Assembly: GCF_016026235.1 (NCBI RefSeq)
Contig: NZ_CP065613.1
Origin: Escherichia coli
GTDB taxonomy: Bacteria > Pseudomonadota > Gammaproteobacteria > Enterobacterales > Enterobacteriaceae
Direction: 5' to 3' (one strand)
DNA length: 64,000 nucleotides
The translations under genes and the position numbers were made by a program. The notes beneath the pieces are model-generated. The model was given only the letters and a program-made list of their open reading frames with translations, made no database searches and was not told the DNA's origin. Positions 6,769 through 50,914 of this stretch are shown in pieces (position 1 is the stretch's first letter; the number at the start of each line of letters is the position of its first letter).

Positions 6769-8222
<1,454 letters not shown>

Positions 8223-31197: not shown

Positions 31198-31863
31198 TTA
31201 ATGCAGGCAGCACTGCTTAAATTTCTTACCACTACCGCACGGGCAAGGATCGTTACGCCCCGGTTTCTCTTCTGCTTTGATCGGTTGCTGAACAGCTTTT
31301 TCCTGCGGATGCGCCATCCAGTACGCATGTAGATCAAGCGCCGCCAGTCGAATGGCATCTACGCTCTCTTCAAACGCTTCTGGCGACATTTTCTCTACCC
31401 GCTCGAAGTTTTCCTCAGTACCGTGCAGCGCAATCGCCTCCAGCGCTGGTTTTAACGAATCGGGCAACGTTGACCAGTCAGAAAGTGCCACGCCCCGCAT
31501 ATAGCCAAAGCACCACTCCTCAACAATCGTCAGCTCGCTGCCATCAACTTCTCGCAAGCCGAATAACGGCTCAAACTGCTCCGGGAATTCGTTCAGACGC
31601 TCTGCGGTATCGGCCATATGTTGAAAAGCCAGGTTCATAAAGCGCGTCATCTCTTTCTCTGACGCCCAGCGCGGCACATAGTCAGCCCCACCCCACACGG
31701 CAACCAGCCACTGTGCCGGTTCAATCTCTTGCGGAGAACTCAACACCGCCGTCAATAAACCGTCCAGCTCCGCCACATCAAGGATGGCGTGGTCAGTGTT
31801 GTATTTGGTCAGAATATCGTCCAGCCATTCCAACTCACTTTCGTTTAACGGTCCCGTTTTCAT
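31198..31863 (-). CDS. yecA: UPF0149/SEC-C-motif protein YecA (221 aa)
   Basis: Full-length match; C-terminal metal-binding SEC-C motif [20 protein letters not shown]. Confidence 0.93.
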
Positions 31864-32002
31864 ACGCTTTTCCTTGTGGATCTCAACTCGCCAGCACCTA
31901 TCTTACATGCCGGTCCGTATCAGAGATACTTTTTGAGTGGCTTTGCCGGTGATTAAAAATTAAGGAGGGTGTAACGACAAGTTGCAGGCACAAAAAAACC
32001 AC

Positions 32003-32114
32003 CCGAAGGTGGTTTCACGACACTGCTTATTGCTTTGATTTTATTCTTATCTTTCCCATGGTACCCGGAGCGGGACTTGAACCCGCACAGCGCGAACGCC
32101 GAGGGATTTTAAAT
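32003..32114. repeat. Left direct repeat of the island: terminator-like hairpin plus 56 nt copy of the tRNA-Leu 3' end (32059..32114), att-like
   Basis: About 95% identical to 60482..60601 (the 3' part of intact leuZ and its downstream terminator); tRNA identity is lost after ...GAGGGATTTTAAAT at 32114. Confidence 0.85.
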
Positions 32115-32379
32115 TCTACGTAGGATCAATGAGTTACATAGCAGTGCATTGTGAAACTTTGCTGACGTTGAATGGTCGTCTTTGCAACCACTGGCAGAAA
32201 ATGGATAGCCGTAGATTGCGTTGAGCACAGAAACAGCACAGGGTAATCGTCTACCTGGTCCTGTAAAGGAGGTTGTTGCCACACAAGCTAAAGCGCTTGA
32301 CCTGCCCCCAGTATTCGGTACAACTGTCAGTTAGTAATGGACTGACCCCGTTACTTTATTCGTACCCCTTATAATGGGG

Positions 32380-32576
32380 TGTTAGCCAGCCAGACCCGGC
32401 ATGATTACTGCCCCCAGTCGTCCATGATCCGGGGGGTGATGTCACCGGGTCTGGTGGGGCGCTGGTAACCGCTAATAGGGGTCAGGTCAGGCACTTTTGC
32501 CGGGACCGTCTGTAACGTGGATGCCGGTACCTGCTCCCCGTGGTTATCTGGTTAACCCATATACAAGGGAGACAGA
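32380..32576 (+). ncRNA. Candidate structured non-coding RNA upstream of the IS110-family recombinase (possible bridge RNA)
   Basis: GC-rich non-coding stretch with a long inverted repeat (CCAGACCCGG ... CCGGGTCTGG) immediately 5' of the recombinase; bridge RNAs are encoded in the 5' non-coding end in the IS110 subgroup (established for IS621). Inference only. Confidence 0.25.
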
Positions 32577-33773
32577 ATGACCGAATCCAGCGATTACGAA
32601 TCCGTCCAGGTCTTTATCGGCGTTGATGTCGGTAAAGATACGCATCACGCTGTTGCCATTAATCGTTCAGGTAAACGCCTGTTCGATAAAGCATTACCCA
32701 ACGACGAAAACAAACTCAGGTCGCTAATATCTGACCTGAAACAACATGGTCAGATACTGCTGGTTGTTGATCAGCCAGCTACCATCGGTGCGTTACCTGT
32801 CGCCGTTGCCCGCTCAGAAGGAGTCCTTGTCGGATACCTCCCTGGACTGGCCATGCGCCGCATAGCCGACTTACACGCCGGTGAAGCTAAAACTGATGCT
32901 CGTGACGCTGCCATCATTGCCGAAGCTGCCCGTACCCTGCCTCACGCGCTACGCACGCTGAAACTGGCTGACGAGCAAATCGCCGAACTCTCCATGCTCT
33001 GCGGCTTCGATGATGATCTTGCCGCACAGACAACGCAGGCCAGCAACCGTATCCGCGGCCTTCTGACCCAGATACATCCGGCACTGGAGCGCGTTCTCGG
33101 TCCGAGACTTGAGCACCCGGCGGTACTCGATCTTCTCCAGCGATATCCCTCACCAGAAAAACTCGCTTCGCTGGGTGAGAAGAAGCTGGCAGCCCAGCTC
33201 TGCAAACTTGCGCCTCGTCTGGGTAAACGCCTTGCAGCAGACATAGCTCAGGCACTGGCCGAACAAACCGTCGTCGTTCCCGGCACGAATGCCGCTGCCG
33301 TAGTACTGCCACGTCTGGCACTCCAGCTCATCACGCTGCGTAAGCAAAGAGACGAGGTGGCGCTTGAGGTAGAACAGCGAGTTCTTGCTCACCCTCTTTA
33401 CCCGGTCCTGACCAGTATGCCCGGAGTCGGTGTCAGGACCGCAGCCAGACTCCTCACCGAGGTCGCCTGCCGCGCCTTCGCCTCTGCCGCACATCTCGCT
33501 GCTTATGCTGGCCTTGCGCCGGTAACTCGGCGATCCGGCTCGTCAATACGCGGTGAGCATCCCTCGCGACGGGGTAATAAAGCTCTCAAACGGGCGTTGT
33601 TCCTGTCGGCCTTCGCCGCGCTCAGGGATCCGCTCTCCAGGGCTTACTACACCCGCAAAATGAGTCAGGGAAAACGACACAATCAGGCGCTTATCGCCCT
33701 GGCGAGACGACGCTGCGACGTTCTGTTCGCCATGATGCGCGACGGGACTTTTTATACCCCGCAGGGGTCATAA
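32577..33773 (+). CDS. IS110-family transposase/recombinase (398 aa)
   Basis: N-terminal RuvC-like DEDD motif VFIGVDVGKDTHHAVAIN and C-terminal Transposase_20-type block PGVGVRTAARLL; RBS AAGGGAGA upstream of the ATG. Confidence 0.85.
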   Translation: MTESSDYESVQVFIGVDVGKDTHHAVAINRSGKRLFDKALPNDENKLRSLISDLKQHGQILLVVDQPATIGALPVAVARSEGVLVGYLPGLAMRRIADLHAGEAKTDARDAAIIAEAARTLPHALRTLKLADEQIAELSMLCGFDDDLAAQTTQASNRIRGLLTQIHPALERVLGPRLEHPAVLDLLQRYPSPEKLASLGEKKLAAQLCKLAPRLGKRLAADIAQALAEQTVVVPGTNAAAVVLPRLALQLITLRKQRDEVALEVEQRVLAHPLYPVLTSMPGVGVRTAARLLTEVACRAFASAAHLAAYAGLAPVTRRSGSSIRGEHPSRRGNKALKRALFLSAFAALRDPLSRAYYTRKMSQGKRHNQALIALARRRCDVLFAMMRDGTFYTPQGS

Positions 33774-33869
33774 CATGCTTGACAACTTAATAGGGGCACC
33801 CCCCGGTAGACGATCCTGCCCTATAGTTGGACTGACCCCACCCCGGTAGACGATCCTGCCCTATAGTTT

Positions 33870-34053
33870 GAGTATAGGGGGAGCATATGGGCACACCACG
33901 GTCAATCAACCAATGACTGAGCAAATCAGGCTCAACATTACGGTTGTTAGGACGCGTGTGCCAATCGCCTAGATAACGATAGCCCAATTCCTCAATAAAA
34001 AACCTGACTACGCGCTGTTGAGTTGCGCGTTCACGTTGTCCGACAGTTGTCAC
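33870..34053 (-). pseudogene. 5' remnant of a gene truncated by the IS110-family element (resembles an N-terminus of a restriction-enzyme or helicase subunit)
   Basis: ORF 33787..34053 begins MTTVGQRERATQQRVVRFFIEELGYRYLGDWHTRPNNRNVEPDLL and then reads into the repeat-containing end of the IS; it lies 23 nt downstream of the helicase gene stop, so it was the next gene in that operon. Homology assignment is weak. Confidence 0.3.
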
Positions 34054-36396
34054 TGTTCTTATTACCTTTAACTAATTATGCCAATTCAGACTCAAACGCT
34101 GCATCATTCGCTTCAGCCTCTGCGCCATCAATTAATGCCAAGACTCGGTCAAGAAAGCGTTGCGCTTCGTATACATCTGTTGCTTGCCGCAGATAATGAG
34201 GTATTCGTTCAACAAACTCGGAACGTGATAAAGGCTGATGTTCCAGCAAAGCCTCAAGCATTGCGGGCCGCAACAAACGACGATCAGCATCAACATTAGG
34301 AAGCTCAACCTCAATGACATGTGTGGCAAAATACTTAAGTTGCTCCTTAAGCCCCAAATTGGGCATAAGAGAATCAATTGAGTCAGACGCCACTTCAGCG
34401 CTTGACTCAATCGTTTCGACATATTCACAGGAAGGTACAACAACGTCTGGAGCCAATGTTTTAAGCTCATGGAGTTTACGGATAATCGGAGATAGAACCT
34501 CATCAGGATTACTGAACCAATCAGTGGACCAAATGCGGCTAATTCTCCAACCCAAACGCTCCAGAACCTCTTGACGCAAACGGTCACGATCACGAGCAGA
34601 TTTAGCTGAGTGATAAGCCGCACCATCACACTCTATGCCCATTAAGTAACGGCCAGGACAACCTGGATCTTTCACAGCTAGATCAATAAAGAATCCTGCA
34701 ACCCCTACCTGAGGTTCACACTCAAACCCAGCGTGATTGAGTGCTTCCATTACAGCAACCTCAAAGTCACTATCTGGAGCCCTGCCGGTATGCGTTGTGA
34801 GGGAATCTAGTTTGCCACTTTCGGCAAACTGTAAAAAACCTTTCAACGAAATAACACCAAGTTTACTGGTTTCACTCGTCAATACATCTTCAGAACGCAT
34901 TGAACTAAACACATGCATCCGTTTTTTTGATCGAGTGAAAAGCACATTCAAGCGACGCCAGCCAACATCGGAATTGATAGGTCCAAAGCGTTGATAAACC
35001 TTTCCACCATGCTCAGAAGGTCCATAGGTAAAGGAAATAAAGATTACATCACGCTCATCCCCTTGAACGTTCTCAAGGTTTTTCACAAAAAGTGGCTCTT
35101 CCATGGCATATAAGCCATCGATTGCATCGTTAAATTCAGGGCGATTTCGGCGCAATTCATCGATAGCGCGCTCAATTTGATCGCGTTGCTTGGAACTCAT
35201 GGCCACTACCCCGAGTGACTCACCCGGCCGGTGTTGCGCATGATGAAGTACGGCCTCAGCAACTGCTTGGGCTTCTTCAATATTGTGTTGATTGGAGAAC
35301 CGACCTTTTGACACATAGGTAAATTTAATCCCATACTCTGGAGACTCAGCATTTGGGGAAGGGAATATCACCAAATCACTGTTATAAAAATGGCGGTTAG
35401 AGTATGCAATCAACTTTTCATGTCGTGAACGATAGTGCCAACGCAAACGTCTCATAGGAAACAGTGGCAAAGCAGCATCCAAAATGCTGTCAGTATCACT
35501 TAAAGCCGCGGCATCATCGTCATCTTCTCCGTCGGCACTTCGATCAAAGAAACTGGTTGGTGGTAGCTGTTTCGGGTCACCAACGACCACTAGTTGCTTG
35601 CCCCTCGCGATGACACCCAATGCATCCTCTGGCTTCACCTGAGACGCTTCGTCCATCACCACCAGATCAAATTCCATTCGTCCAGGTTCTAGGTAATGAG
35701 CTGCTGACATTGGCCCCATCATGAAACAAGGTTTAATTGCAACCAGCGCATTACATGCACGGTTAACCAATTGCCTAATTGGAATATGTCTGGTTTTTTT
35801 ACCCAACTCATTTTTGATCAAAGCTAGTTCTGTATATTCACTTTTCTTACCACCAGAATTCCCTTCTGGTATATTTCGGTAAGCAATTTTTGCTGCAATC
35901 CGCTGACGTTGTAATTCAATCAGTTTTTTGTCGTAATCTTTAAATGACTTCTGCAAAGCATTGCGCTGTGAGCCGGAAACTCTCATCAATTCAGGGTGGA
36001 TGTGAATAACCTCCCGCGCCAGCTGGTCATGAATTGCTAATGCTAAACCCAATTCAACTTTTTCAATCGGGAGCGAGCCCGCAAGTACAGCACTCCAGAT
36101 TCGCTGCAATCCATTTTCATGCATCTGCTCGTAACAACGAATAAAGTTAACCCACCCGTTCAACCAACGGGGTTGCTGTATTGCTCTTTCGTTGCGCTCG
36201 ATTAATGTATTAAGAGAACCATCAGTCGACTTGAGCCACTGACTCCGCTCTAACTTTGTTTCTAGCGCATATAACTCAGCATTTTTAATCTGTTCATTCC
36301 ATTTCGAAACTATTTCCCCACCATCACGACATAGTAAATCGGGTGATGCTGCCAACTTACTGATTTAGTGTATGATGGTGTTTTTGAGGTGCTCCA

Positions 36397-36672
36397 GTGG
36401 CTTCTGTTTCTATCAGCTGTCCCTCCTGTTCAGCTACTGACGGGGTGGTGCGTAACGGCAAAAGCACCGCCGGACATCAGCGCTATCTCTGCTCTCACTG
36501 CCGTAAAACATGGCAACTGCAGTTCACTTACACCGCTTCTCAACCCGGTACGCACCAGAAAATCATTGATATGGCCATGAATGGCGTTGGATGCCGGGCA
36601 ACTGCCCGCATTATGGGCGTTGGCCTCAACACGATTTTACGTCACTTAAAAAACTCAGGCCGCAGTCGGTAA
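36397..36672 (+). CDS. insA: IS1 protein InsA
   Basis: [43 protein letters not shown]... matches InsA. Confidence 0.9.
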
Positions 36673-37094
36673 CCTCGCGCATACAGCCGGGCAGTGACGT
36701 CATCGTCTGCGCGGAAATGGACGAACAGTGGGGCTATGTCGGGGCTAAATCGCGCCAGCGCTGGCTGTTTTACGCGTATGACAGTCTCCGGAAGACGGTT
36801 GTTGCGCACGTATTCGGTGAACGCACTATGGCGACGCTGGGGCGTCTTATGAGCCTGCTGTCACCCTTTGACGTGGTGATATGGATGACGGATGGCTGGC
36901 CGCTGTATGAATCCCGCCTGAAGGGAAAGCTGCACGTAATCAGCAAGCGATATACGCAGCGAATTGAGCGGCATAACCTGAATCTGAGGCAGCACCTGGC
37001 ACGGCTGGGACGGAAGTCGCTGTCGTTCTCAAAATCGGTGGAGCTGCATGACAAAGTCATCGGGCATTATCTGAACATAAAACACTATCAATAA
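36591..37094 (+). CDS. insB: IS1 transposase InsB reading frame (expressed as InsAB by -1 frameshift)
   Basis: ORF matches InsB (...[21 protein letters not shown]...); overlaps insA in the -1 frame. Confidence 0.85.
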
Positions 37095-40000
37095 GTTGGA
37101 GTCATTACCAGTAAATCGTAATCACTACCACTAGCCAAATGTCTGATCTGGGTAGCCAAGGATACGCAATTTATCTTATCAACCAGTTGCTCGGCAAAAT
37201 TCAGCGTGTCGTTAATAGTGTCTAACGTCAGTTGATTATTTTTATACGCACCGCAAGCCAATGGGGTTAATTGTAAAAACGCCCCTAACTGTAACGAGTC
37301 ATTTTCAAGGGATATCTGAAGATCGTTTATGTTTTGCAAAATCTCGGAGGAATGAGTCATCTGCTCTAATGATATATCTGGATTGATAAACCATCCCTGC
37401 AAGGCAATGAGAGTATTCCGCACCTGTCGGTAAGATTGCATCAATACACCTTGCTCACCTAACCAAGATGCATGTTCTTCCAACAAGCTAGAAATACGCG
37501 GTAATAACTTAGCCTCGTGCTCGACCCGTTTAACCAAAGTCATTAATCTTGAGCTAATCTGCGATTTCTCGATTAAATGCACACCTTTGATAATCTCACC
37601 ATCTAGGTTAATTAATCCAGAGCCTATCGCAACTCGCTTTCCAAAACCTATCCCGTAACAAGCTCGGACCTTCTTGTACCAATCACGCAATAACATGAGT
37701 TGTTCACAGTCGGTGTCCAACCCTCGGAATGCATTACCAAGTTGATTACCAAAGTCACTTTGTTCAAACCGTTGTAACAGCTCCGAATACTTGAGCAAAT
37801 CAGCTGAGCAGCGTTTTAACTCAGCAAACTTAGTGTCAGGCTTACGAGATTGCGCCATGAGCAGTGCCTTGGCACTACGCCAATCACTCTTAAACCATGC
37901 AAATAATCCCCCTTGCTGGATAACAGCAACGGCATGCGCGAGCATCTCTTGGGAAGGCAACTGGTCCAATTGATACAAAGTAGATAGACCATCTCTTAAA
38001 GGACGCAATGTTTCGATTTGACACATTAAGTCGCGCAATACTGCATCGATATCATCATCATCAAAAAGAGGATCTCGAACTCTAATAAGCTCAGTCGGTA
38101 AAGCACCCAGAATCGACAACAACTCAGAGCAGAATAGCAATCCAGCTTGCGAATCATCGATATACGAAGCAATACCATCTGGCAAAGCATTTTTGAAATC
38201 GTTTAATTGCGCATAAATAGATGATAACTCATCATGAATTGATTGGATGGATTCAAGCCACCTGACCAAATCACGTAAAGTGAAATCCTCTGCTGCACCA
38301 TATTTTTCCAGCTCTTCACGAGGAAAGTCACACGATTGTCCTTGTTCTAAAAGTCGTAGCTTTTGAGGCTCGATAACCTGGCTCAAGGCCACATAATGAC
38401 CTTGTAGCAACTCGAACCTATCTAAATAGTGACGCACCCGTGCAATGGCATCGAGTGAATCTAGCTCACTAAGTGCTGGGAAATGCTCTGAACCACACAA
38501 CACTGGAAGATTCGACTGATCTTCTACCAATTGCTCAATATATTGAAGCGTATTAAGGCTTTCGCCTTCTAACGCCCACTTATCTACATATTCTTGATAG
38601 CTATGTTGAAAGTCGATAATTGATGTCTGCCAAGTTTGTAGCAAATCGACTATACGAGCGCTGTCAAACAATTGAATTTGTGTGTTATTCACACCGCTCC
38701 AAGGGTGCTCATATATTTCTGCATTAGCCCCCACCTGCTCACGAACCTCTTTGTAGATGCGGCTAAACTCTACTATTTGGTCACGCAGCCGTAATTGGGT
38801 CACTTTATCCAACTGCTTCCCGGAAAGGTTTTCGATATGAAGTGCTGTTGCATCAATATCTAATTTGTGACGATAACGTGTTGCACCACTCAAAATCTGA
38901 TGGATCGTTTTGCCTGTTTGCGCCCATTGGTTATTGATCAATGCGGCATATTCATTGAGCTGCTGCTTAAGATCTTCATAACGCAAAATCTGAGCATCAA
39001 TCTCTTCCATAGTAGGCATGGTCGCCTGACTCACCAAGCGAGCATTAATATCATCCAGCACCTTGCGCTTATGAGTTTTATGACTGTGCAACTCTAAGCA
39101 AAATTGACCTAGCCCCGCACGATCCAAGCGACGTTTGACGACCTCCAGTGCAGCCATCTTCTCTGCCACAAACAGGACTTTCTTACCGTTGAGCAGAGCT
39201 GCTGCAATCAAGTTGGTGATCGTTTGTGATTTGCCACTACCAGGAGGGCCCTCAATGACTAAGTTTTGACCACGGATAGCATCGATCAACGCACTGTGCT
39301 GCGAGCTATCCGCATCATCGATTAGTGGAACCTTGTCATGAATATCAGGGTAACTATCGATGCAGTACTCATGCTGACCGAAGCCACCAGGTAAGCCGGA
39401 ATTCTCTTGACCACAGCTCTGACTGGTGAAAAAGCGACGAATTACTTCATGAGACAATATATTGCGCTTGTCACAAGGCCAGCGGGCAGGATCGAGGTCA
39501 AGATACATCATCATCTTGCCAAAATTGAGCAAGCTAAGTGCACCATAACGTTTCACAGACCATTTAGGTTTGTGCTGCTCTACAACCTTCTTCACCGAAG
39601 CAAAATAAGACTCTGGAGTTTCCTCTTCATTGAACAAAGGAAGAGCGAGGCCAAAGTCAGCCTGAAGTTTTTCCTTCAAAGAGAGATTGGGCAAAATATC
39701 TTCACCCGTGTAATAAAGTTGAAACTTGTAAAGACCATCCTTCGGATCTAATTTTCCTCGTTCACATCTCACCGGAATTGTAAATAACGGTGCATAACGT
39801 GCCTTTTCAGAGGAATCGCTTTCATACCACTCAAGGAACCCTAACGCCAAATACAAGATGTTGGCGCCACTCTCCTCCAAAGCAGTTTGAGCCTTACCAT
39901 AGATGGCGCGCAAACAAGCTTCCAGTTCATTTGGATAAAGCAGAGCCTGTATCCGATTATCGTCATGAGAGGAATTGGAAGAAGATATACTAATCTCATT

Positions 40001-40774
40001 CCCAGCCTTTGCCTGTCGTTCAAAATCCTCAAGCCCTTCATAGCCTGCTAAGCAGCACGCCTCCTTCAACGCTGACAAAGCTATACCTTGATTAACGTAT
40101 TCAGAACGAATCCCTGTTAATTTTCCATTCTGGCCTTGGGCATATTGCAAGATAAACTGATGGGCTTTTTCCAGCAACTCTCTATCTGAATCAGAAACAA
40201 CCGTTTTATGGCTATCTGGTAAATCAAAATCTGTACGGATTCCTAAGACGTGCGCCCAATCCTTAGCGCTAGGATGAGCTCTTAACTGTATATCTTTACC
40301 ATCTGGCCCAACTTTGAGATAGCCATGCTCTAACAGCTGCGCTCTAGTTGGATCGGGCACAGGAGCAAATTCCATCGGGATTTCCGAGCAAAGGGTTTCA
40401 TAAAGCTGTTCTGGTAATTCATCAACAATACGTAGTGAAGACCCTTTTTGAGTGATAGGGAAATTCAAAAGTCGATTTCGAGACGTAAGGTCCAATAACT
40501 TCTTACGCATAGCCTCGAGGGAAGTCAGAATAAAATCTGAGCCTCCTTGATTGAGTTCCTCTGCTGTAGAGGTATCTACAGTCGACATAATGTTCTCCAT
40601 TTCTTAGGGTCCACAAGTAAAACGTTTTATGCTGATGCATCACAAAAAGACCGCAGTAAACTGCTGCAAAGAAGAGGAGATTTTTAGTCTCCCCTTCTTT
40701 ATCAATCAGATCATACAATCAACTTAACGCCCATTAGTTGATAGCAGCCAAATTTCATAAACAGATTCAATCCG

Positions 40775-42817
40775 TTATTGCTGAATTTGATTGGATAGTA
40801 AGACCTGCAACATATCTTGTTGATGCTCAGCTATCTCATCTTCCAGCCAACGACCTTTATCTTTCATCAGCCGAATCATAGCAAGCAATTTAAGACTATC
40901 AGTCTGGTTATTGGCAAGGCTTGCTTCAAAGTGCTCCTGCTTCTGTTGCGGCTGGAAGTTACTCAAGCGCGAGTTCTTGCTGTGGCTGATAAGGCAAAGG
41001 TTGCCAAACGAATGGAGTGCACTCTGCTCAACCGGTTTATAGCCATCCATCGGATGCTGGGGTGAGAAGTGCTCCACCGAGCTGCGGAAAGTGAACTCAA
41101 AGGAGCCAGCAACTTTGTCGCTATTCCGATCTCGTACCCACAGCAGATAGTCGAGGAAGTTGAAGACAAAGTTGTTCTCGATATGACCGAAGCGAAGTTT
41201 GGATGTAATCACCTTGTGCCAACTCTCATCCACATTGATGGCGGGCAACAGGGCGTTATCAAGGTAGAGCATCTGGTAATAGGAAGCCCCTTCACCAGGC
41301 GCCAAAAAGCGCTGGAAGACAAAGCGGCGAGCCTGACTCTCCAGATAGGACAGATAAGCCCCGGCATCCACCGGTTGATCAGGGTGACAATTGTCGAACA
41401 GATATCTCAGTGCACCATTCAGCCAATGTTTGTAAACCAGGGTCGGGGTCGACACATGAAACGCCGACAGCAACATCAGGACCCGCCGGTTAACACCAGA
41501 GAAACCATTCTCATTTTCATCCTTGTCAAAGGTATTGATGTAACTGACGCTCTTTTCCGAATACCAGTGCAGCCGCTTCAGACTCCAACTATCCTTGCCA
41601 TCGGCAAACTCGCGCTTGATGATGAACTGATCAAACAGATACTTGCTCTTTAACAGGCCATAGATAAAACGCTGAACTGCCGCTACTGGATCCGGTTGCC
41701 TTATCACTCGCAGCTCAAACTGATCGACCAGTTGTTTATCATCAAGCGGCACCCCCTCCGTATCACCCGGGTCGCGGCTCACGAGTCGCAGCACATGGAG
41801 CAAGAAGTTGGAGAAGTTGATGACGCTGTTAAAGCGCTCGGAGCCTGCGCTCTCCTCCTCCACCGTCTGCTCACCATCAAGCTTGTCATCCTGCAAAATG
41901 GCCAACAAGGTGCGCCCTTGGCTACCGGCAGCTGCACGGCTTTTATCGGCAGCGTCGGCCGTGTTTGGGGATCCTAGCAGTTCAAGCAGATGGGCAAAAT
42001 CACGGGGCACAAACTGACCCCAGTCGCTCTCACCAAACAGACGGTGGCGCTCTTGCGGGGTAAAGCCGTACTGGATATAGCGCTCCATATTGGCGCAGGC
42101 ATCCCATACCCGAGTCAGGATATGAATACTTTGGCGACGATGCTCTTCCTCGGGTATCTGGTTCAGCGTCTCCATCAGCCGCGCCTTGATCACTTCATGC
42201 TTTTCCAACTGCTCGCCGCGATTGTTCATCGCCTCGAAGAAGTGATTGAGATCGGTATCCTTGGGTACTTCGATACGAGAGATCTGCACATGCTTGAAGA
42301 GGTAGTCGCAAAAGGCCGTCAGTTTAGCCCCTACCAAACCAAGATCCGCCATTGCCTTGCCAATCAGCTCAAAACCGTTCACCAAACCTTCATTGAAGGT
42401 ACTCCCCCGCAAATCGTAGGGGGCAACACCCTGCCATAAGCGCTCGAAGGTATGGCTCGATATCGGGCGACTCTCAAAAGCGAGGTTGATGGTCTGATAC
42501 CAGCTCATATCCACCGAATCTATCGCGTGATGTTTGAGCCAATTGGCCAGCAGAGAGAGGGTAGTAAAGCGCTGCTGGCCATCGATTACCTCGAAACTGC
42601 CATCGTCCCGGGCAAACACCACCAGGGTGCCGATATAGTAGGTTTGCGGCCCCTTACCACTGACCAATTTTTGCTGATAATCCAGCACATCCTGCAGCAG
42701 CTGGGTGATCTCTCCCTCACCCCAGGCATAGTTGCGCTGGTACATGGGCACCAGATAGCGGGCGCGATCTTCAAGCAGTGCACGAATGGAAAAGGGGCGA
42801 ACGCCTGCATCATTCAT
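40775..42817 (-). CDS. DUF262 + DUF1524 (HNH-like) protein, GmrSD-family type IV restriction-like (680 aa)
   Basis: N-terminal DUF262 motifs ([26 protein letters not shown]) and C-terminal HNH-type block ([19 protein letters not shown]). GC-rich compared with the AT-rich island cargo. Confidence 0.75.
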
Positions 42818-44264
42818 AATATTTCATCTCCCGAAACAGCCCGACCAGCTCATCTTCGGCACCATTGCGATTGTTCTTGTTCTCTCGACTGCTCATGCTA
42901 GGCAAAGGGAAGCCGTGCAGATCTCCCGGCAGACGAGCATCACGAATGGCACGGATCAGATTGTGCTCCAGCACATAGTTATCCATGGTTGCCAACTGCA
43001 CTACCTGCTGGCGGATGCGGCAGCGATAGGCCCAGATAAAGCACTTCTCGATGGCCAGTGACAGCCCTTGGCTGCCGAACTTGTCGATATAGAAGATCAG
43101 TGCGCAGTCGAACATGGCCCGCACATAACGATCCCCGGTGCGGTGGCGACGCTCGTAGCTGCCCAGGGTCGATAGCACCTTGCTGGCCATCGGTGTCAGC
43201 GTTTCGCCGAGCAGGGTGGCAGATTGCGCCTTGCCGGAATCAGACTCCTCGGCCACGATGGCGGCCACCCGCGTCTGGTAGTACTCGGCCATCTCGAAAA
43301 AGCGCCGACCATTGATGATCATCTGGTCGAGATGAAAGGGAAACGTCATGTACTGGCCGTCAATCTTGCGCTGGTACTGGCGGTTGTACTCATCGACAAA
43401 GTGGTGGGCGATGCGCAGCGACTCCACGTAAGGATAATGCCCTACCCGATCTAGGTTGACCCCCTTGAAGAGATCCACCTCCCCCTTGCCAAAGTAGCGG
43501 GCCGACTTGCCCTCGGCCCACTGGCGTACCCGATAGAGATAGAGGGCGAACAGATTGGCCAGCTCGTCGCTTGGCAGGCGCTCCCAATGGGCGACCGCCT
43601 CGGCCTTGAGATTGGCCTCATGACCGGCAAACTCGCGCAGGTGAAATGCCTTGAGCAGATCGTGAGGAGCCAGATCGCGCCCCCGGGCATTTTGCGAATC
43701 GAAGAACTGGAACGCCTCCGAGATATCCTGCAGTACAAAGCAGACCACCTGACAGCGGTTGAGCAGAAAGTCAATTTGCTGCTCGTCAAACTCAGGGCGG
43801 GCCACCAGCCGACGCAACTCCAGATAGTTGCGTCTGAGGTTGAACTCCGAATCCCGGCTGGGGAAGCGCTGGCGCTGCATAAACGCATCGATAGGTCCAC
43901 GCAAGACCTGCAATTGCTCACGCAGATCCTGACGTTGAAACCGGATACTCTTCTCTTTGCCACTGCGATTTTCGTTATCCAGCACCTCGATCAGCGCCTT
44001 GACGGTCAACATCAGGGTCAGGGTGCGTTGCTGACCATCGACGATATCAAGCATCTCGCCCTGCTCACTATCGGTGTGCTGATGAAACACCACCGAGCCC
44101 AGCCGGTAGGCGCTCTTGTCCTGATGGGTTGCCAAATCGGTAAAGAGATCCGAGATATTCTTGGAGCCCCAGCGGTAAGGTCGCTGATAGCTTGGGATGG
44201 CCAGTTGGGGAATGGCCAGCAACTGGCGTACCGACTGCACTTGATTATTAATGCTCTCCATCAT
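42810..44264 (-). CDS. DUF262 (ParB-like nuclease/NTPase domain) protein (484 aa), partner of the downstream DUF262-DUF1524 gene
   Basis: Motifs [17 protein letters not shown] and [12 protein letters not shown]; 3' end overlaps the downstream gene start by 8 nt. Confidence 0.7.
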
Positions 44265-44276: not shown

Positions 44277-44887
<611 letters not shown>

Positions 44888-44918: not shown

Positions 44919-45674
44919 CTACATATCTGCCAACAACATCCCAGCCATACCATCCAGTCGCTTCTTAACCTTTTCCCAGCCCGGCATAACCTGCCCCATC
45001 AGACGGTAAAACTCCTCGCTGTGGTTGTGCTCAGCCACATGGCATAACTCATGTAGCAAAACATAATCGATACATTCTGAGGATGCCTTAACCAGCCATG
45101 GATTCAGGGTCAGACAGCCTTTTGCTGAACAGTTGCCCCATTGCGTTTGCATCGCCCGCAGACGTATCGGAGGACGCTCACTGACCCAAAGGGTCTGCGG
45201 AATCAGTAAATCAAGCCTGCGCTGAAAAACATCTCTGGCACGTTCCCGATACCATTCAGCCAGCAAGGCTTTAATCTTTTCTGCCGATTTGTGTCTGACA
45301 GTCACTTCCAGACGCCCACGCAACATTTTCACTCGTTGCGGCACAGTAGCGTCTTCTGTCACTTTCAACTGATATTGCTTACCGAGATAATAATGGCTTT
45401 CTCCGCTGACATACTGACGCGGAACAATGTGTATCTGTTGCTCCCTGAAATCACGCAGTTGCTGGTATATCCAGCGCCCACGTTTTTTCAGCGCAGACAA
45501 TACCTCGTGCTCCGGTGTTTCAGGCGGTACAGAGGCCACAACCCGGCAGTCCGGATAAACCTTAATGAGCACCCTGCCCTTTACGACCTGACGCGGAACA
45601 CACTGTACGACGATGACCTCATCACCATAGACAATGCGTAACGCTTTCATTGATGGCGATTCTTTTTCACTCAT
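44919..45674 (-). CDS. M48-family zinc metallopeptidase (YgjP/DUF45-like), type I R-M associated (251 aa)
   Basis: HExxH motif LLHELCHVAEHNHSEEF; start overlaps the hsdR stop; this family is commonly encoded next to type I hsd genes. Confidence 0.75.
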   Translation of the reverse strand: MSEKESPSMKALRIVYGDEVIVVQCVPRQVVKGRVLIKVYPDCRVVASVPPETPEHEVLSALKKRGRWIYQQLRDFREQQIHIVPRQYVSGESHYYLGKQYQLKVTEDATVPQRVKMLRGRLEVTVRHKSAEKIKALLAEWYRERARDVFQRRLDLLIPQTLWVSERPPIRLRAMQTQWGNCSAKGCLTLNPWLVKASSECIDYVLLHELCHVAEHNHSEEFYRLMGQVMPGWEKVKKRLDGMAGMLLADM

Positions 45675-48600
45675 GATTTCATCAAACCAACGCGCAGTAT
45701 CTGGATGATGGTTTCAACAATACGGTTAACCTGATTCATTCCGGCACCAATTTCCCGGCAGGCCGTAAACAGCAGTGGTAGCAGACTTGTCTTAACGACT
45801 TTCTCAATGTCCTGGGGGTTCAGGGAGTTTTCTGCCACCGCTTTGACGATAATGTTGTCCACTTCAAAAGCCAGCTTCGTCCACTTATCCTGCACCTGAA
45901 CGTCGTTTACCGCAAAAACCTCAGGTAGCTCTTTTTTAAATACACCGTAATACGCCTGAGCATGCTTGTTTACCGCCAGTGCATCCGGGATATCGCTGAG
46001 CTTACGGGCTTCAACCTGTTCTTCAAATTCACGGAACAAAAGGTACTGTTTCAGCGGATGGTCAAACAGTTTTTCAGCCTCTTCGATAGCCATACGCAGG
46101 AGTTTTGAAAATGCCTCCTGAGCATACGGGTCATCACGCAATTCCTGCTCAATCATCTTTGTCACACGGGTTTTAATGATGTCGGTTTCATTGCGGGTTT
46201 TATTGTTGTCCCACTCTTCGGGCTTTTCGCTCTTGCCCATTTTACCGACTTCATACACGCCATCCGGTTCACGAACTTCAACGCCGGTGACATGCTTATC
46301 CAGCAGTTTTTTCACCTGCTCAGCGTAGTCGTCATAATTGACCTGCTCTCCACTTACCTGCATCGCCCACTGGCGCAGGCTGGACATCTGTTTTACGGTT
46401 TCTTTATAGAGATTTCGGTCTTGTTCCGTAAAGCTCTTGTCGGTGAAGAAGGTAGCGGACTGCAGTGCCACTTTCAGGCATCCGGCAAAGGCCGTTAACG
46501 CCTCGAAGAAATCATCACGGGTTTTCTGATGGATATCGACCATCTCTCCGTCACGTTCTTCCATTTTAGGCACCAGTACCGCACGTAACTGCTCAGTATC
46601 ATTTTTGTTTTTAACACCGGCAAATATGGCCCACAGCTGGTTATACAGATGCGGCAGGCGCTTGTATTCAGAGCTCATGGCGCTGTACAGCCCGTCAATA
46701 TCTTTGATATCGTATCCGCCCTGAGTTCGGGAGGCGAGGTCCTGATATTTGCCGATAGTCGTGTCCAGCTCAGCCAGAATACCGCGATAATCAATCAGCA
46801 GACCGAACTTTTTTAGTGGATGCAGTCGGTTCACCCGCGCAATCGCCTGGATAAGGTTGTGGGACTTAAGCGGCTTGTCGATATACAGCACGGTATTCTT
46901 CGGCTCATCAAACCCGGTGAGCAGTTTATCAACGACTATCAGCAATTTGAGCTTCTCATCGGTATCGAAACGACTGATGACATTACGGGTATACACAGAC
47001 TCATCCTGCGTGCCGACATTATCCTTCCACCATTTCGTCACTTCCGGCAGTTTGCTTTCATCCACTTCGGTATTCCCTTCCCGGGTATCCGGCGGGCTGA
47101 TAACTACAGCTGACTCAAACAACCCGGCTTCATCAAGATACTTTTTATATTTGATGGCGGAAATCTTGCTGTCGCAGGCAAGCTGGCCTTTCAGTCCCTC
47201 ATCAATATTCTTCGAGAAGTGCGTGGCGATATCGAGTGCGATCAGACGGATGCGATCATCTGCACTATAAACCTCACCTTTACGGGCATATTTACGCTTC
47301 AGGTCGGCTTTTTGCGCTTCGCTTAACCCATCGGTAATACGATCAAACCAGGCATCTATTGCCCGATCGTTAACCTCAAGGTCGGGAATACGTTCTTCAT
47401 ACAGCAAAGGTGTAACGGCTTTATCTTCTACCGCTCGCTGCATGGTATAAGCGTGGACAATCGGCCCGAATTTATTAGTGGTCTTATCTTCTTTCAGCAA
47501 CGGCGTACCGGTAAATGCCACAAAGGCGGCGTTCGGCAGTGCCAGTTTCATTCGCACATGGTTCTCACCCCCCTGGCTCCGGTGTCCTTCATCAATCAGT
47601 ACGATGATGTCGGGGCTGGTATTGACGCATTCAGGAAGTTTTGTCGCTGAATTAAATTTCTGGATAAGGGTGAAGATAATGCGTTCTTTACCAGAGCCAA
47701 TCTGCTGTGCCAGTTTCTGGCCAGAGGTCGCCATTGCTTTGGCCTTATCATCCTTTCCGGCCAGTTCGCCACCAGAAGCGAAAGTGCCGCTGAGCTGCCC
47801 TTCAAGATCGACACGGTCCGTCACCACCACAATGCGACACTGCTTCAGGCTGTCATGAAGAATCAGCGCCTTACTGAGGAACACCATGGTGTACGATTTA
47901 CCGGAGCCCGTGGTATGCCAGATCACACCACCTTCTCTGCCCCCGTCCGGTCTGCGGGTGCTTATGCGTTCCAGCAGCCTTTTAATCCCGAACACCTGCT
48001 GATAGCGGGCGACAATTTTCCCGGTCTTTTTATCAAACAGGGTGAAAAAGCGGGTCATCTCCAGCAGACGTTCCGGTGAAAGCAGGCTGATGAGCAGCTT
48101 ATCCTGCCCGCTGACGGCCAGTTCACCGGCGGCGATTAACTGTTGGTACCAGTCGAGATCGGCTGAAGGACGATGATCAAACAACGCATGAATTTGTTCA
48201 GTCGATAACTTATGGTTGCGCAGCGCATACATCTGCGCGTAAGTAATATCTTCTTCGCGCCATGCCGCCCAGAATTTCATTGGTGTATGACAGGTACCGT
48301 AGCGCCCGTCATGCCCGTTAATCGACAGTAATATCTGGCTGTAAGCAAACAGCTGCGGGATTTCGTCGTTGAGCTGATTGCGGATACTCTGGGATATCCC
48401 TTCGTCAATGGTTGGCCCTTTCTTGCCGTGACCCGCCGGGCTTTTCGCTTCAATGACGGCCAGCGGGATACCATTCACAAAACACACAATATCCGGTCTG
48501 CGGGTTTCGACACCGCCTGACCGCAATACCGTAAATTCTTCGGTAAAATGGAACTGGTTATTTTCCGGATGTTCCCAGTCGATCAGCGCAATGGTGGGGT

Positions 48601-48958
48601 TCACCTTCTTGCCATCGACAAACTCCGTGACGGCGATACCGTAGAGCAGATGGTTATACATCCGTTCATTGGCTTTGAGCAGCCCTTCATTGAGCGCCGG
48701 AGAACAGACCTGTGATATCAGGTTATCCAGTGCTTTTTCCGATAACTGGCAGGTTTTGCCACCCGCCATAAAGGAACGCTTCGACAGCTCTTCACGCAGA
48801 ACCGGACGCAGCACCACCTCATCCTGTTTATAGCCCCGGTAATCCATAATCTGTTTCGGAGATAAAAACGTCCAGCCGAGGCTGGTCAGTAACGTCAGTG
48901 CCGGAATTTTGGCGCTGTATTCTTCCTGGAATTTTGGCGTGTACGTCTGGTTCATCAT
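45671..48958 (-). CDS. hsdR: Type I restriction enzyme R subunit HsdR (1,095 aa)
   Basis: Size and motor-domain motifs (TGSGKS Walker A, DEGHRSQ DEAD-box-like motif II) typical of HsdR. Confidence 0.9.
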   Translation of the reverse strand: MMNQTYTPKFQEEYSAKIPALTLLTSLGWTFLSPKQIMDYRGYKQDEVVLRPVLREELSKRSFMAGGKTCQLSEKALDNLISQVCSPALNEGLLKANERMYNHLLYGIAVTEFVDGKKVNPTIALIDWEHPENNQFHFTEEFTVLRSGGVETRRPDIVCFVNGIPLAVIEAKSPAGHGKKGPTIDEGISQSIRNQLNDEIPQLFAYSQILLSINGHDGRYGTCHTPMKFWAAWREEDITYAQMYALRNHKLSTEQIHALFDHRPSADLDWYQQLIAAGELAVSGQDKLLISLLSPERLLEMTRFFTLFDKKTGKIVARYQQVFGIKRLLERISTRRPDGGREGGVIWHTTGSGKSYTMVFLSKALILHDSLKQCRIVVVTDRVDLEGQLSGTFASGGELAGKDDKAKAMATSGQKLAQQIGSGKERIIFTLIQKFNSATKLPECVNTSPDIIVLIDEGHRSQGGENHVRMKLALPNAAFVAFTGTPLLKEDKTTNKFGPIVHAYTMQRAVEDKAVTPLLYEERIPDLEVNDRAIDAWFDRITDGLSEAQKADLKRKYARKGEVYSADDRIRLIALDIATHFSKNIDEGLKGQLACDSKISAIKYKKYLDEAGLFESAVVISPPDTREGNTEVDESKLPEVTKWWKDNVGTQDESVYTRNVISRFDTDEKLKLLIVVDKLLTGFDEPKNTVLYIDKPLKSHNLIQAIARVNRLHPLKKFGLLIDYRGILAELDTTIGKYQDLASRTQGGYDIKDIDGLYSAMSSEYKRLPHLYNQLWAIFAGVKNKNDTEQLRAVLVPKMEERDGEMVDIHQKTRDDFFEALTAFAGCLKVALQSATFFTDKSFTEQDRNLYKETVKQMSSLRQWAMQVSGEQVNYDDYAEQVKKLLDKHVTGVEVREPDGVYEVGKMGKSEKPEEWDNNKTRNETDIIKTRVTKMIEQELRDDPYAQEAFSKLLRMAIEEAEKLFDHPLKQYLLFREFEEQVEARKLSDIPDALAVNKHAQAYYGVFKKELPEVFAVNDVQVQDKWTKLAFEVDNIIVKAVAENSLNPQDIEKVVKTSLLPLLFTACREIGAGMNQVNRIVETIIQILRVGLMKS

Positions 48959-49007
48959 TAATCCTTTTCTTTCTGGCGCTACTCGCTACTGGTCACATGA
49001 AGATTCA

Positions 49008-49691
49008 TCAATGCAGACAGCACTTCTTAAATTTTTTACCGCTGCCACACGGACACGGGTCATTTCGCCCGGGCATGTTTTCTGCCCCCTTCACTGGAAC
49101 AGGCCGGGATGATGCCTCTGACATTCTCACCGACAACCAGTGCTGGTAAAGCGCCAGTGCCGCAGGCTGAATGAGAGTAATACTCTGTTCAAATTGAACA
49201 GGTGACATTTTCTCAACCACTGGGAAGTTCTTTTCGATACCATGAAGGGCTATCGCCTCCAGCGAGGGACGTAAGGCCTCTGGCAAGGCTGACCAGTCAT
49301 CCAGAGACCGGCCTTTCATATACCCGAAACACCACTCTTCGACGATTGTATATGTCTTCCCCTTCACCTCACGTCCATTGAAAATCGGTTCAAACTGTTC
49401 AGGGGCCTCATACAGGCAGCCAGCGATATCGTTCATATGCTGAAAACACAGCCCCACAAAACGCGTCATCTCTTTTTCAGTGGTCCAGTGAGGGTAGTAG
49501 TCACCTCGCCCCCAGATAGCACTAAGCCAGGTATTAGGGGGGATCATATTCGGGCCAGAGACAATCGCTGTCAGAAAGCCATCCAGCTCAGAGAAACAGA
49601 GCACAGAGTCATCATTGCCGTATTTCAGCAACACCTCTTCCAGCCAGTCGATTTCCCGGTCAATCAGCGGCCCGCTTTTCGTCAGTTTCAT
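49008..49691 (-). CDS. YecA-family (UPF0149) SEC-C-motif protein paralog embedded in the type I R-M operon (227 aa)
   Basis: Aligns along its length with chromosomal YecA (31198..31863), including the C-terminal [20 protein letters not shown]; start ATG overlaps the hsdS stop (ATGA). Confidence 0.85.
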
Positions 49692-50914
49692 TCGGCAACC
49701 GCCTCATCGACCTTAACACGACGTTTGCCAGTCAATAGCTGTTGCATCAGGGCTTTTTTCTCATCTCTCAGGCAGGCGAGTTTTTTCTCCAGCGTGGAGA
49801 TTTCGGTGTCAGCAGCGGACAGCACGGCGGCGATTTTTTGTTGCTCTTTAATAAATGGGCAAGAAAAGCTTAAAGTTTCAAAATCTTTCTTGGAAAGTTC
49901 TAAAAATGTTGAGCCAGATGATTTTTTGATCATCTCATTTGTGTTCATTTGCAACAAATAATAAATAAATTCGATATTAAACCCTTCATTCGGAATGATG
50001 TTTTTAAAACCTTGATTGGTACAAATTTCCGATGTCGAAATTGCTAAAGCACCAATGGTAGCTCTTGTACATACCATCAAACTACCTTTTGGCAAAAGAA
50101 CAGCTGAGCTATTTAGTAATCCCGCAGGAGTAATTTTTCTACTAGTATTGCTAACGAACCTACCCGTTAATGCAGTAACATCAGTTGGGGTAAGCCATAG
50201 AATATCGCCTTCCCAATACATGGCCATGTTTGTATCAGGTGTTCCACCGGATACAACTTTGCCCATTTGTATTAGTTTAGTAATTTTCCACTCCCCACTA
50301 AACCTCACCCCATTCTCATCCAACAACCGTTTATTCCCGGTAAGCAATTGCTGCATCAGGGCTTTTTTCTGCTGTTGACTGTTGGCGAGAAGGCTTTCCG
50401 TCACCGAAATTGCCTTATCCCAGGCGGTCAGAATTTGAGATATTTTATCTTGTTCACAAATAGCAGGAGTTTTTATGTTTAACGCTCTAATATCAGAAAG
50501 GTTAATTCTAGAAAAGGTAGAACCACCTGCACTTTTTGCTATCTGTCGCTGGACTAAATCTGATTGTAATGTGTAGTAAATAAACCGCCAATCTGCATGG
50601 ATTGCTTTAATTAAGACAGTGTCTTGCCCTAATACAAATGGCTTTTTGGAATCCACATAGCTAACAACACCGACAGACTGGTTACGACTCATAACCAAAT
50701 CACCTTGTTCAACAACACAGTGATCCATCAGAGAGCGATATTCTTCTTCTGTAACTCTTTTTACAGGTGAAATCAGATCTAAGGCTCCCCATTTTATCGT
50801 CCCCGGTGAGACAAGTGGTATTCCCGATTTAACGTACTCAGGAGTCCTGTGTTTGCAATCGATTATCGACGCAACCGATGAGAGTTTCTGAGATGACCAC
50901 CCCTTAGGAATCAT
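49688..50914 (-). CDS. hsdS: Type I restriction-modification specificity subunit HsdS (408 aa)
   Basis: Two variable target-recognition domains separated and followed by the conserved repeat [11 protein letters not shown]; start overlaps the hsdM stop. Confidence 0.88.

What the first reader, a model, noticed from the sequence alone, without database searches (positions are those of the whole stretch)
33870..34053. Orphan 5' gene fragment truncated by the IS110-family element
Immediately downstream of the helicase gene, an ORF starts with a plausible protein N-terminus (MTTVGQRERATQQRVVRFFIEELGYRYLGDWHTRPNNRNVEPDLL) and then runs into the repeat-bearing end of the IS110-family element; no continuation is found on the other side of the IS. 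The original partner gene of the DUF4011 helicase is therefore lost, which limits reconstruction of that system.
Basis: seen in the sequence. Interest (0 to 1): 0.3.

Follow-up and report, generated by a model that had tools for sequence, protein, structure and literature searches.

The report
Leftover stub of an hsdR gene
The short ORF behind the helicase gene is the dead first 54 codons of a type I restriction-enzyme gene (hsdR), cut off long ago at an IS3-family element rather than by the IS110 element next to it, so it is an ordinary pseudogene remnant.

Summary
The ORF is real: minus strand 33787-34053, GTG start, 22 nt after the Hhe (DUF4011) stop. Only 33893-34053 is gene-derived. That stretch is 54/54 identical to the N-terminus of a type I restriction subunit HsdR. 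An hsdR open for at least 349 codons follows a 99%-identical hhe in a Shewanella MAG contig.

The IS110-family element (ISEc20, about 32350-33800) did not truncate it. IS-free E. coli alleles carry the identical stub. The 40-nt "repeats" are the left inverted repeat of an IS3-family element, into which ISEc20 later inserted. A Klebsiella plasmid keeps the older state: hsdR codon 54 joined to an intact 1.2-kb IS3-family element. The E. coli allele is that state minus the IS body, deleted between two 8-bp direct repeats (CGTGGTGT).

The lost gene is not a dedicated Hhe partner. Hhe is a published single-gene system. Related operons read hsdM-hsdS-DUF262-DUF262-hsdR, the published TgvAB-type embedded arrangement. 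Hhe was probably a further passenger in front of hsdR.

The remnant lacks the nuclease and motor motifs, ends at different points in different species and is frameshifted in Aeromonas diversa. It is non-functional. Hhe itself is broken by IS1 in this window. Low interest.

The parts
33893..34053 (-). hsdR' remnant: GTG start plus codons 1-53 and 2 nt of a type I restriction R-subunit gene. 33893-33900 (ACACCACG on the + strand) is an 8-nt microhomology shared with the IS3-family orfA.
   Evidence: 54/54 identity to the P0165 N-terminus. The window matches L072 at 99.8% down to 33893 and then diverges. Weak Pfam HSDR_N hit to positions 2-41 of 198. Profile hits carry HSDR_N+SWI2_SNF2+T1R_D3 and TIGR00348.
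33787..34053 (-). Mechanical ORF of 88 codons. The last 34 codons read through IS3-family DNA and 14 nt of ISEc20 and are junk.
   Evidence: The C-terminal tails differ between alleles according to whatever DNA abuts the stub.
34054..34075 (-). 22-nt hhe-hsdR spacer with a weak AAAGG ribosome-binding motif. No promoter- or terminator-like site on this strand.
   Evidence: The spacing is the same (22 nt from stop to GTG) in L072, 6228 to 6251; the A. caviae contig L073 has 18 nt (7216 to 7235).
33801..33892 (+). IS3-family element remnant: inner part of IRL copy 1, a complete IRL copy 2 (40-nt tandem duplication), the leader, and ATGGGC of orfA (orfA ATG at 33887-33889).
   Evidence: repeat family D1. 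Alignment A4 with the intact IS3-family copy L070. 100% match to L076 4164-4236. 1495 plasmids carry this IS end.
32338..32349 (+). Outer 12 nt (TGGACTGACCCC) of the IS3-family IRL, separated from the rest by the ISEc20 insertion.
32350..33800 (+). IS110-family element ISEc20 (transposase 32577-33773), inserted inside the IS3-family IRL. Boundaries are good to +/- 4 nt because of flanking C runs.
   Evidence: 100% identical to ISEc20 copies on Shigella sonnei plasmids. Pfam DEDD_Tnp_IS110 + Transposase_20. Absent from alleles L001 and L002. Junction absent from 5,426 E. coli genomes.
32298..32337 (+). About 40-nt right-end remnant (IRR plus the last codons of the transposase) of a second IS3-family element, into which the first IS3-family element had inserted.
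   Evidence: Compared by eye with the IS3-family transposase 3' end and IRR in L069. Identical flank in L071 and L076.
32059..32114 (-). 56-nt copy of the 3' end of tRNA-Leu(UAA) leuZ. This is the distal att repeat of a 28.4-kb island (32115-60546).
   Evidence: exact 56-nt match to leuZ at 60547-60633. Full tRNAs. yecA and tyrP flank it.
34076..40588 (-). hhe (DUF4011 helicase-nuclease, single-gene anti-phage system), split here by IS1 into 1170-aa and 759-aa ORFs.
   Evidence: PADLOC Hhe model matched end to end by the intact allele. IS1 mapped.
36342..37109 (+). IS1 (768 bp) inside hhe, with a 9-bp target duplication (36333-36341 and 37110-37118).
   Evidence: L001 5360-5368 is duplicated. 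DDE_Tnp_IS1.
40775..44264 (-). Two DUF262 genes resembling tgvA (42810-44264) and tgvB (40775-42817). In relatives this pair sits between hsdS and hsdR.
   Evidence: Pfam GmrSD_N/DUF7834 and GmrSD_N/GmrSD_C. 52% and 46% identical, collinear, to the embedded pair of plasmid operon L074. TgvAB paper PMC11411939.

Best explanation
The feature is a non-functional pseudogene remnant: the start codon and first 53-54 codons of hsdR, the restriction (nuclease/translocase) subunit gene of a type I restriction-modification operon.

Inferred ancestral operon: hsdM-hsdS-DUF262(tgvA-like)-DUF262(tgvB-like)-hhe-hsdR(-SprT/YgjP-like protease). The GmrSD-like pair and Hhe would be defence passengers embedded ahead of hsdR.

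History:
1. Shown: an IS3-family element came to abut hsdR after codon 54, with its right inverted repeat next to the stub. The rest of hsdR was lost. How it was lost is inferred: the IS has no target duplication, so an IS-mediated deletion or recombination between two IS copies is likely.
2. Shown: in the lineage now in the E. coli-type leuZ island, the IS body was deleted between two 8-bp direct repeats CGTGGTGT. One repeat is in hsdR codons 51-54 and the other in orfA codons 3-5. This left only IRL, the leader and 14 nt of orfA.
3. Shown: 40 nt of the IRL were tandemly duplicated in some strains.
4. Shown: in this strain only, ISEc20 (IS110 family) inserted into the outer IRL copy.

The stub has no promoter-like site of its own. 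If it is expressed at all, it is expressed by read-through from hhe. It contains neither the PD-(D/E)XK nuclease motif nor the SF2 motor, and its own hsdM/hsdS are gone, so it cannot restrict DNA (inferred from sequence).
For: Identity of the gene:
- 54/54 residues match P0165.
- Contig L072 is 99.3-99.8% identical in DNA to the window across hhe, down to position 33893, and then continues as an open hsdR of at least 349 codons with HSDR_N, ResIII and SWI2_SNF2.
- A. caviae contig L073 has the same layout.
- The profile search gives 2019 hits. Most of the longer ones tested carry HSDR_N with SWI2_SNF2, and those scanned are TIGR00348 HsdR.

Decay series:
- A. diversa keeps about 245 codons with two frameshifts, ending where an IS30-like transposase C-terminus begins, as judged by eye.
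- E. tarda keeps 73 codons.
- E. coli and Klebsiella keep 54 codons.

Not caused by IS110: IS-free alleles L001 and L002 have the same stub. The ISEc20 junction is in 0 of 5,426 E. coli genomes, against at least 279 with the stub.

IS3 history:
- L076 has hsdR' joined to the IRR of an intact 1232-bp IS3-family element, followed by the same right flank as E. coli.
- L076 1092-3004 equals L001 5896-7808, and L076 4164-4372 equals L001 7801-8009. The two matches overlap by exactly the 8-nt repeat found at L076 2997 and 4164.

Operon context: L074 and L075 read hsdM-hsdS-DUF262-DUF262-hsdR-SprT. Their HsdR is 71-74% identical to P0165, and the L074 DUF262 pair is 52% and 46% identical to the window's pair. 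This is the published TgvAB-embedded arrangement (PMC11411939).

Missing motifs: in P0165 the PD...EIK motif is at residues 135-152 and GSGKS at 279, both beyond residue 54.
Against: - No single complete locus was recovered that shows hsdM-hsdS-tgvAB-hhe-hsdR with a full-length hsdR. L072 and L073 both end inside hsdR and start inside the DUF262 gene, so the full ancestral operon is a synthesis of two kinds of locus.
- The mechanism that removed the hsdR 3' part at the IS3 junction is inferred, not seen.
- Absence of function of the 54-residue peptide is inferred from sequence only.
- The DNA of the stub is nearly identical in E. coli, Klebsiella and Edwardsiella, so selection cannot be measured there.
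Confidence: 0.9

Rival explanations
1. One reading: the gene was intact until the IS110-family element inserted into it, and the missing part was lost with that insertion.
For: The IS110-family element lies only 92 nt from the end of the stub, and nothing resembling the gene follows on its other side.
Against: IS-free alleles end at the same nucleotide. The DNA between the stub and ISEc20 is an IS3-family end that exists independently in more than 1,000 plasmids. ISEc20 sits inside that inverted repeat. Its junction is unique to this strain among 5,426 E. coli genomes. Klebsiella, Edwardsiella and Aeromonas copies are truncated without any IS110.
Confidence: 0.01
2. The ORF is a genuine small gene: a 54-90-aa protein, for example a regulator or adaptor co-expressed with Hhe, that merely resembles the HsdR N-terminus.
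For: It keeps a start codon 22 nt after hhe and travels with hhe in several genera. The first protein search returned only short homologues.
Against: The short-only result is a tool artefact: both searches listed nothing longer than about 1.75 times the query length. The peptide is identical to the first 54 residues of a longer HsdR. The ORF ends differ with whatever DNA abuts the stub. Truncation points differ (54, 73 and about 245 codons), and the A. diversa copy has a stop at codon 41 and substitutions at otherwise invariant residues. A. australiensis and E. anguillarum Hhe loci lack it altogether.
Confidence: 0.04
3. HsdR is a true functional partner of Hhe in a two-component system, so Hhe next to the stub is crippled by the loss.
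For: hhe and hsdR are 22 nt apart in L072 and 18 nt in L073, consistent with co-transcription. In 8 more distant Hhe loci a type I hsdM-hsdS lies downstream, directly after hhe in six of them.
Against: Hhe is described as a single-gene defence system. The E. coli Hhe that matches the PADLOC model end to end is the version followed by the stub. Most of the 63 Hhe loci have unrelated downstream genes. HsdR is known to act with HsdM2HsdS (stated in PMC11411939).
Confidence: 0.05

Closest known systems
HsdR of type I R-M operons with embedded TgvAB (V. cholerae VPI-2 VC1765-69 type; E. coli IncY plasmid pZ1323CEC0011-3, Pseudoalteromonas pjat527)
   Same: The same HsdR lineage: the intact relative P0165 is 71-74% identical over 349 aa. 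The gene is preceded by the same pair of DUF262 genes (52% and 46% identity). It starts with the same MTTVGQ.E..TQ.RV...F...LGY.YLG.W motif.
   Different: Only 54 codons survive here. Its hsdM and hsdS are gone. An hhe gene sits between the tgvB-like gene and hsdR, which is not part of the published five-gene operon.
Hhe (DUF4011 helicase + MTES_1575/Vsr-like nuclease), single-gene anti-phage system
   Same: The upstream gene is this system; the intact E. coli allele matches the PADLOC Hhe model over 1-1911.
   Different: The finding itself is not part of Hhe. In this window hhe is also interrupted by IS1.
IS-generated gene remnants in Shigella/E. coli genomic islands (IS3-family junctions, IS1 insertions, IS110-family elements inserting into inverted repeats of other mobile elements)
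   Same: The break is at an IS terminus, with later microhomology deletion and nested IS insertion. ISEc20 sits inside another element's terminal repeat.
   Different: Nothing unusual. The only particular point is that the deletion end points (an 8-bp direct repeat) can be reconstructed exactly from a Klebsiella plasmid.

Membership tests
HsdR, type I restriction enzyme R subunit (Pfam HSDR_N PF04313 + SWI2_SNF2 PF18766; NCBIfam TIGR00348) | Sequence descent from an hsdR gene (N-terminal region) | tested here: met
   54/54 identity to P0165, which carries HSDR_N, ResIII and SWI2_SNF2. DNA collinear with L072 up to 33893. Weak direct HSDR_N hit to positions 2-41 (E 0.0099, below the gathering score).
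HsdR, type I restriction enzyme R subunit (Pfam HSDR_N PF04313 + SWI2_SNF2 PF18766; NCBIfam TIGR00348) | PD-(D/E)XK nuclease motif in the N-terminal domain | tested here: not met
   The motif lies at residues 135-152 of P0165. The stub ends at residue 54.
HsdR, type I restriction enzyme R subunit (Pfam HSDR_N PF04313 + SWI2_SNF2 PF18766; NCBIfam TIGR00348) | SF2 ATP-dependent translocase domains | tested here: not met
   No continuation anywhere in the window. Walker A GSGKS is at residue 279 of P0165.
HsdR, type I restriction enzyme R subunit (Pfam HSDR_N PF04313 + SWI2_SNF2 PF18766; NCBIfam TIGR00348) | Cognate hsdM and hsdS in the same operon | tested here: not met
   Upstream of the DUF262 pair is a partial IS1 (44512-44887). 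Beyond it lies a different, complete type I system with its own, only 35%-identical HsdR.
Gene truncated by the adjacent IS110-family element | The break coincides with the IS110 terminus, and IS-free alleles carry the intact gene | tested here: not met
   The break is at 33893 and the IS end at about 33800. IS-free alleles L001 and L002 have the same stub.
Dedicated partner gene of Hhe (multi-gene Hhe system) | Conserved neighbour across diverse Hhe loci | tested here: not met
   Among 63 Hhe loci this hsdR N-terminus lies directly downstream only in close relatives (3 of the 63: L007, L008, L009). The other direct-downstream cases (L001-L004, L069, L072, L073, L076) were fetched separately. 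Downstream genes are otherwise heterogeneous, and the largest class is hsdM in 8 loci. The literature describes a single gene.
Decaying pseudogene remnant | Variable truncation points, frameshifts, and tails dictated by flanking DNA | tested here: met
   54, 73 and about 245 codons, plus an open version of at least 349 codons. Stop at codon 41 and two frameshifts in A. diversa. Variable tails.
TgvAB-type embedded type I R-M operon (PMC11411939) | Order hsdM-hsdS-DUF262-DUF262/DUF1524-hsdR | tested here: inconclusive
   The order is seen in homologous loci L074 and L075, and DUF262-hhe-hsdR in L072 and L073. In the window only DUF262-DUF262-hhe-hsdR' survives. No single locus with all genes plus hhe was recovered.

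The most novel reading that the evidence does not exclude
hhe is a third passenger embedded in a TgvAB-type type I R-M operon (hsdM-hsdS-tgvA-tgvB-hhe-hsdR). The tgvAB-hhe block has since spread among Enterobacterales, Aeromonas and plasmids, always dragging an hsdR stub along. Retention of the stub, or of the tgvAB-hhe linkage, might reflect a functional dependence. Examples would be 3'-end mRNA stabilisation or translational coupling for hhe, or cooperation between the modification-dependent TgvAB nuclease and Hhe.
Probability: 0.08. Interest if true: 0.35.

Novelty: already known. Interest (0 to 1): 0.15.

Why it matters
It matters mainly for annotation. The ORF should be labelled as an hsdR pseudogene remnant, not as a hypothetical protein or a lost Hhe partner. 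The Hhe system here needs no missing partner to be understood, although in this strain it is inactivated by IS1.

A minor point of interest is that the stub records where the tgvAB-hhe block came from, namely a type I R-M operon with embedded defence genes. The step-by-step IS history can be reconstructed exactly: the IS3 junction, the 8-bp-repeat deletion, the 40-nt duplication and the ISEc20 insertion.

Tried and rejected
- The first protein search with the 56-aa peptide returned only proteins of 33-96 aa. I first read this as "always a fragment". The second search (235-aa query, all hits <=412 aa) showed that the tool lists nothing longer than about 1.75 times the query, so that reading was dropped.
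- The NCBIfam hits to ICE_VC0181 and Cap3 (E about 1e-4 to 1e-3, 20 bits against cut-offs of 128-200) and the PDB hit to a peptidase (E 0.12) were rejected as chance.
- Comparison with the window's own complete HsdR found no similarity at the N-terminus, so the stub is not a duplicate of that gene.
- Rfam found nothing in 31900-34200. The promoter/terminator scan found nothing on the minus strand near the stub.
- An exact-pattern scan of metagenome contigs for the sequence across the break point found nothing.
- A search of E. coli genomes for the part of hsdR beyond the break found nothing.
- I considered that the E. coli and Klebsiella junctions at the same nucleotides were independent events, or an inversion. 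Both were rejected in favour of one IS3 junction plus a later deletion, once L076 was found.

Full report
**1. What is at the coordinates**

On the minus strand an ORF runs from 34053 to 33787 (88 codons, GTG start). It begins 22 nt after the TAA stop (34076-34078) of a 759-aa ORF that carries AAA_11/AAA_12 and the MTES_1575 nuclease domain. Upstream of that ORF lies a 1170-aa ORF with DUF4011.

**2. Surroundings**

- The two helicase ORFs are one gene, hhe, split by a 768-bp IS1 (36342-37109, 9-bp target duplication).
- The intact E. coli allele (1911 aa) is annotated as the anti-phage protein Hhe and matches the PADLOC Hhe model end to end.
- Upstream of hhe are two DUF262/GmrSD-like genes (40775-44264) and a partial IS1 (44512-44887). 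Beyond these lies a separate, complete type I R-M system: ygjP-like, hsdR 45671-48958, an embedded UPF0149/SEC-C gene, hsdS and hsdM.
- The whole region is a 28.4-kb island in tRNA-Leu leuZ. The full tRNA is at 60547-60633, next to a P4-type integrase. A 56-nt copy of its 3' end is at 32059-32114, followed by yecA and tyrP.
- The stub therefore lies at the far end of the island.

**3. What gene the stub comes from**

- Pfam gives only a weak HSDR_N match (positions 2-41 of 198, E 0.0099).
- A profile of the peptide and its diverged relatives, searched against 1.84 billion representatives, finds 2019 proteins (1007 at E<=1e-10). Most of the longer ones tested carry HSDR_N with SWI2_SNF2, some also T1R_D3-like, and the three scanned against NCBIfam match TIGR00348.
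- A composite query then recovered P0165 (Shewanella sp. MAG) and P0166 (Aeromonas caviae). Their contigs read DUF262 - hhe (1911 aa) - hsdR. The hsdR starts at the same GTG, 22 nt after hhe in the Shewanella contig (18 nt in the A. caviae contig), and is open for at least 349 and at least 318 codons until the contig ends.
- The stub is 54/54 identical to P0165.
- The Shewanella contig is 99.3-99.8% identical in DNA to the window through hhe and down to window position 33893, where the window departs.
- The nuclease motif (PD...EIK, residues 135-152) and Walker A (residue 279) of P0165 lie beyond the stub.
- tblastn finds no continuation in the window.

**4. What cut it**

It was not the IS110-family element. 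Megablast places ISEc20 at about 32350-33800. E. coli FDAARGOS_943 and CP8-3 have no IS there, yet carry the same stub followed by the same sequence. At least 279 complete E. coli genomes have the stub. None of 5,426 has the ISEc20 junction.

The 92 nt between the stub and ISEc20 match the left end of an IS3-family element: IRL, leader and the first 14 nt of orfA. This end is found in about 1,500 plasmids. FDAARGOS_943 has one copy, while CP8-3 and the window have two. ISEc20 sits inside the outer copy.

The K. pneumoniae plasmid NZ_CP092398.1 (L076) preserves the older state:
- hhe, then hsdR' ending ...GACCGTGGTGTTG;
- the IRR of an intact 1232-bp IS3-family element in the opposite orientation;
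- its IRL, followed by exactly the flank seen in E. coli.

The octamer CGTGGTGT occurs at the end of hsdR' (L076 2997) and at orfA codons 3-5 (L076 4164). The E. coli allele equals L076 with everything between the two octamers removed. The two BLAST segments overlap by exactly those 8 nt.

This also explains why a second Klebsiella plasmid (pNJST258N3-62b, L069) breaks at the same nucleotides but shows the IS end in the other orientation. The IS has no target duplication, and its right flank is a remnant of another IS3-family element. The 3' part of hsdR was therefore probably removed by an IS-mediated deletion or by recombination between IS copies. That step is an inference.

**5. Independent decay elsewhere**

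- Edwardsiella tarda keeps 73 codons after hhe, at a different chromosomal site.
- Aeromonas diversa keeps about 245 codons with a stop at codon 41 and two frameshifts. The remnant ends where an IS30-like transposase C-terminus begins, as judged by eye.
- A. australiensis and E. anguillarum have none.
- The ORF tails differ with the abutting DNA.

This is the pattern of a dispensable remnant.

**6. Is it Hhe's partner?**

[quoted passage not shown] In 63 Hhe loci from different species, this hsdR N-terminus lies directly downstream only in close relatives. Elsewhere the downstream genes are heterogeneous. The commonest class is an hsdM-hsdS pair, found in 8 loci and directly after hhe in six of them.

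Homologous HsdR genes (71-74% identical to P0165) on an E. coli IncY plasmid and a Pseudoalteromonas plasmid sit in operons reading hsdM-hsdS-DUF262-DUF262-hsdR-SprT. The IncY plasmid's DUF262 pair is 52% and 46% identical, full length, to the window's pair. This is the published "type I-embedded GmrSD-like" TgvAB arrangement (PMC11411939).

The simplest reading is that hhe was a further passenger between tgvB and hsdR. The tgvAB-hhe block later moved without its hsdM/hsdS. The useless hsdR then eroded, since HsdR acts only in a complex with HsdM and HsdS (as stated in PMC11411939).

**7. Mechanism and function**

The stub has no promoter-like or terminator-like site of its own. It could only be read through from hhe, which is itself broken by IS1 here. 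With 54 residues, no catalytic motif and no methylase/specificity partners, it should have no restriction function (inference).

**8. Verdict**

The label "orphan 5' fragment" is right. The cause (IS110) and the consequence (unknown partner lost) are wrong. This is an ordinary, fully explainable hsdR pseudogene remnant, of low interest and already-known kind.

Noticed in passing
window 36342-37109 (TSD 36333-36341 / 37110-37118): IS1 is inserted in hhe at about codon 1157, so the Hhe defence gene is inactivated in this strain.
   Followed up: yes
window 44512-44887: A partial IS1 (376 bp) lies between the ygjP-like gene and the tgvA-like DUF262 gene. This is probably where the original hsdM-hsdS of the tgvAB-hhe-hsdR module was lost.
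   Followed up: partly
window 40775-44264 (-): A pair of DUF262 genes (484 aa DUF262+DUF7834; 680 aa GmrSD_N+GmrSD_C) is homologous to pairs embedded between hsdS and hsdR on plasmids L074 and L075. This is the TgvAB-type two-protein type IV restriction system (PMC11411939).
   Followed up: partly
window 45671-52427 (-): A complete type I R-M system (hsdM 50904-52427, hsdS 49688-50914, hsdR 45671-48958, ygjP-like 44919-45674) has an embedded 227-aa UPF0149/SEC-C gene (49008-49691; PADLOC candidate PDC-S12). That gene has the same domain make-up as chromosomal yecA (31198-31863), which flanks the island.
   Followed up: no
window 32059-32114 and 60547-60602; island 32115-60546: A 28.4-kb genomic island in leuZ is bounded by a 56-bp direct repeat of the tRNA 3' end. 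It has a P4-type integrase at 58287-59516, a second integrase-like gene at 55643-56779 and another IS1 transposase at 57066-57569.
   Followed up: partly
window 32338-32349 / 32350-33800 / 33801-33840: ISEc20 (IS110 family) is inserted inside the terminal inverted repeat of an IS3-family element (TGGACTGACCCC^ACCCCGGTAGACG). Identical ISEc20 copies on Shigella sonnei plasmids lie next to an IS21-family istA. This insertion is absent from all 5,426 complete E. coli genomes searched, which may mean the window is from Shigella.
   Followed up: partly
window 33801-33880; L001 7833-7873; L002 7833-7913: There is a 40-nt tandem duplication of the IS3-family IRL. Alleles with one copy (FDAARGOS_943) and two copies (CP8-3, the window) coexist in E. 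coli. Its origin is unexplained.
   Followed up: partly
L069 (pNJST258N3-62b), L076 (NZ_CP092398.1), L071 (Raoultella pJSWP042_GES): The DUF262-hhe-hsdR' block, or its IS3-flanked end, is widespread on Klebsiella and Raoultella plasmids (about 200 records). There it is further cut by Tn5403, ISKpn26 or a group II intron.
   Followed up: partly
L003 8370-8450 (Edwardsiella tarda): In E. tarda the hhe-hsdR' block ends about 130 nt from what looks by eye like a tRNA gene on the opposite strand (possibly selC). This suggests another tRNA-associated island. It was not checked with the tRNA tool.
   Followed up: no
tool behaviour: the search for homologous proteins listed no protein longer than about 1.75 times the query (96 aa for a 56-aa query; 412 aa for a 235-aa query). 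Short queries therefore cannot reveal full-length parents.
   Followed up: yes
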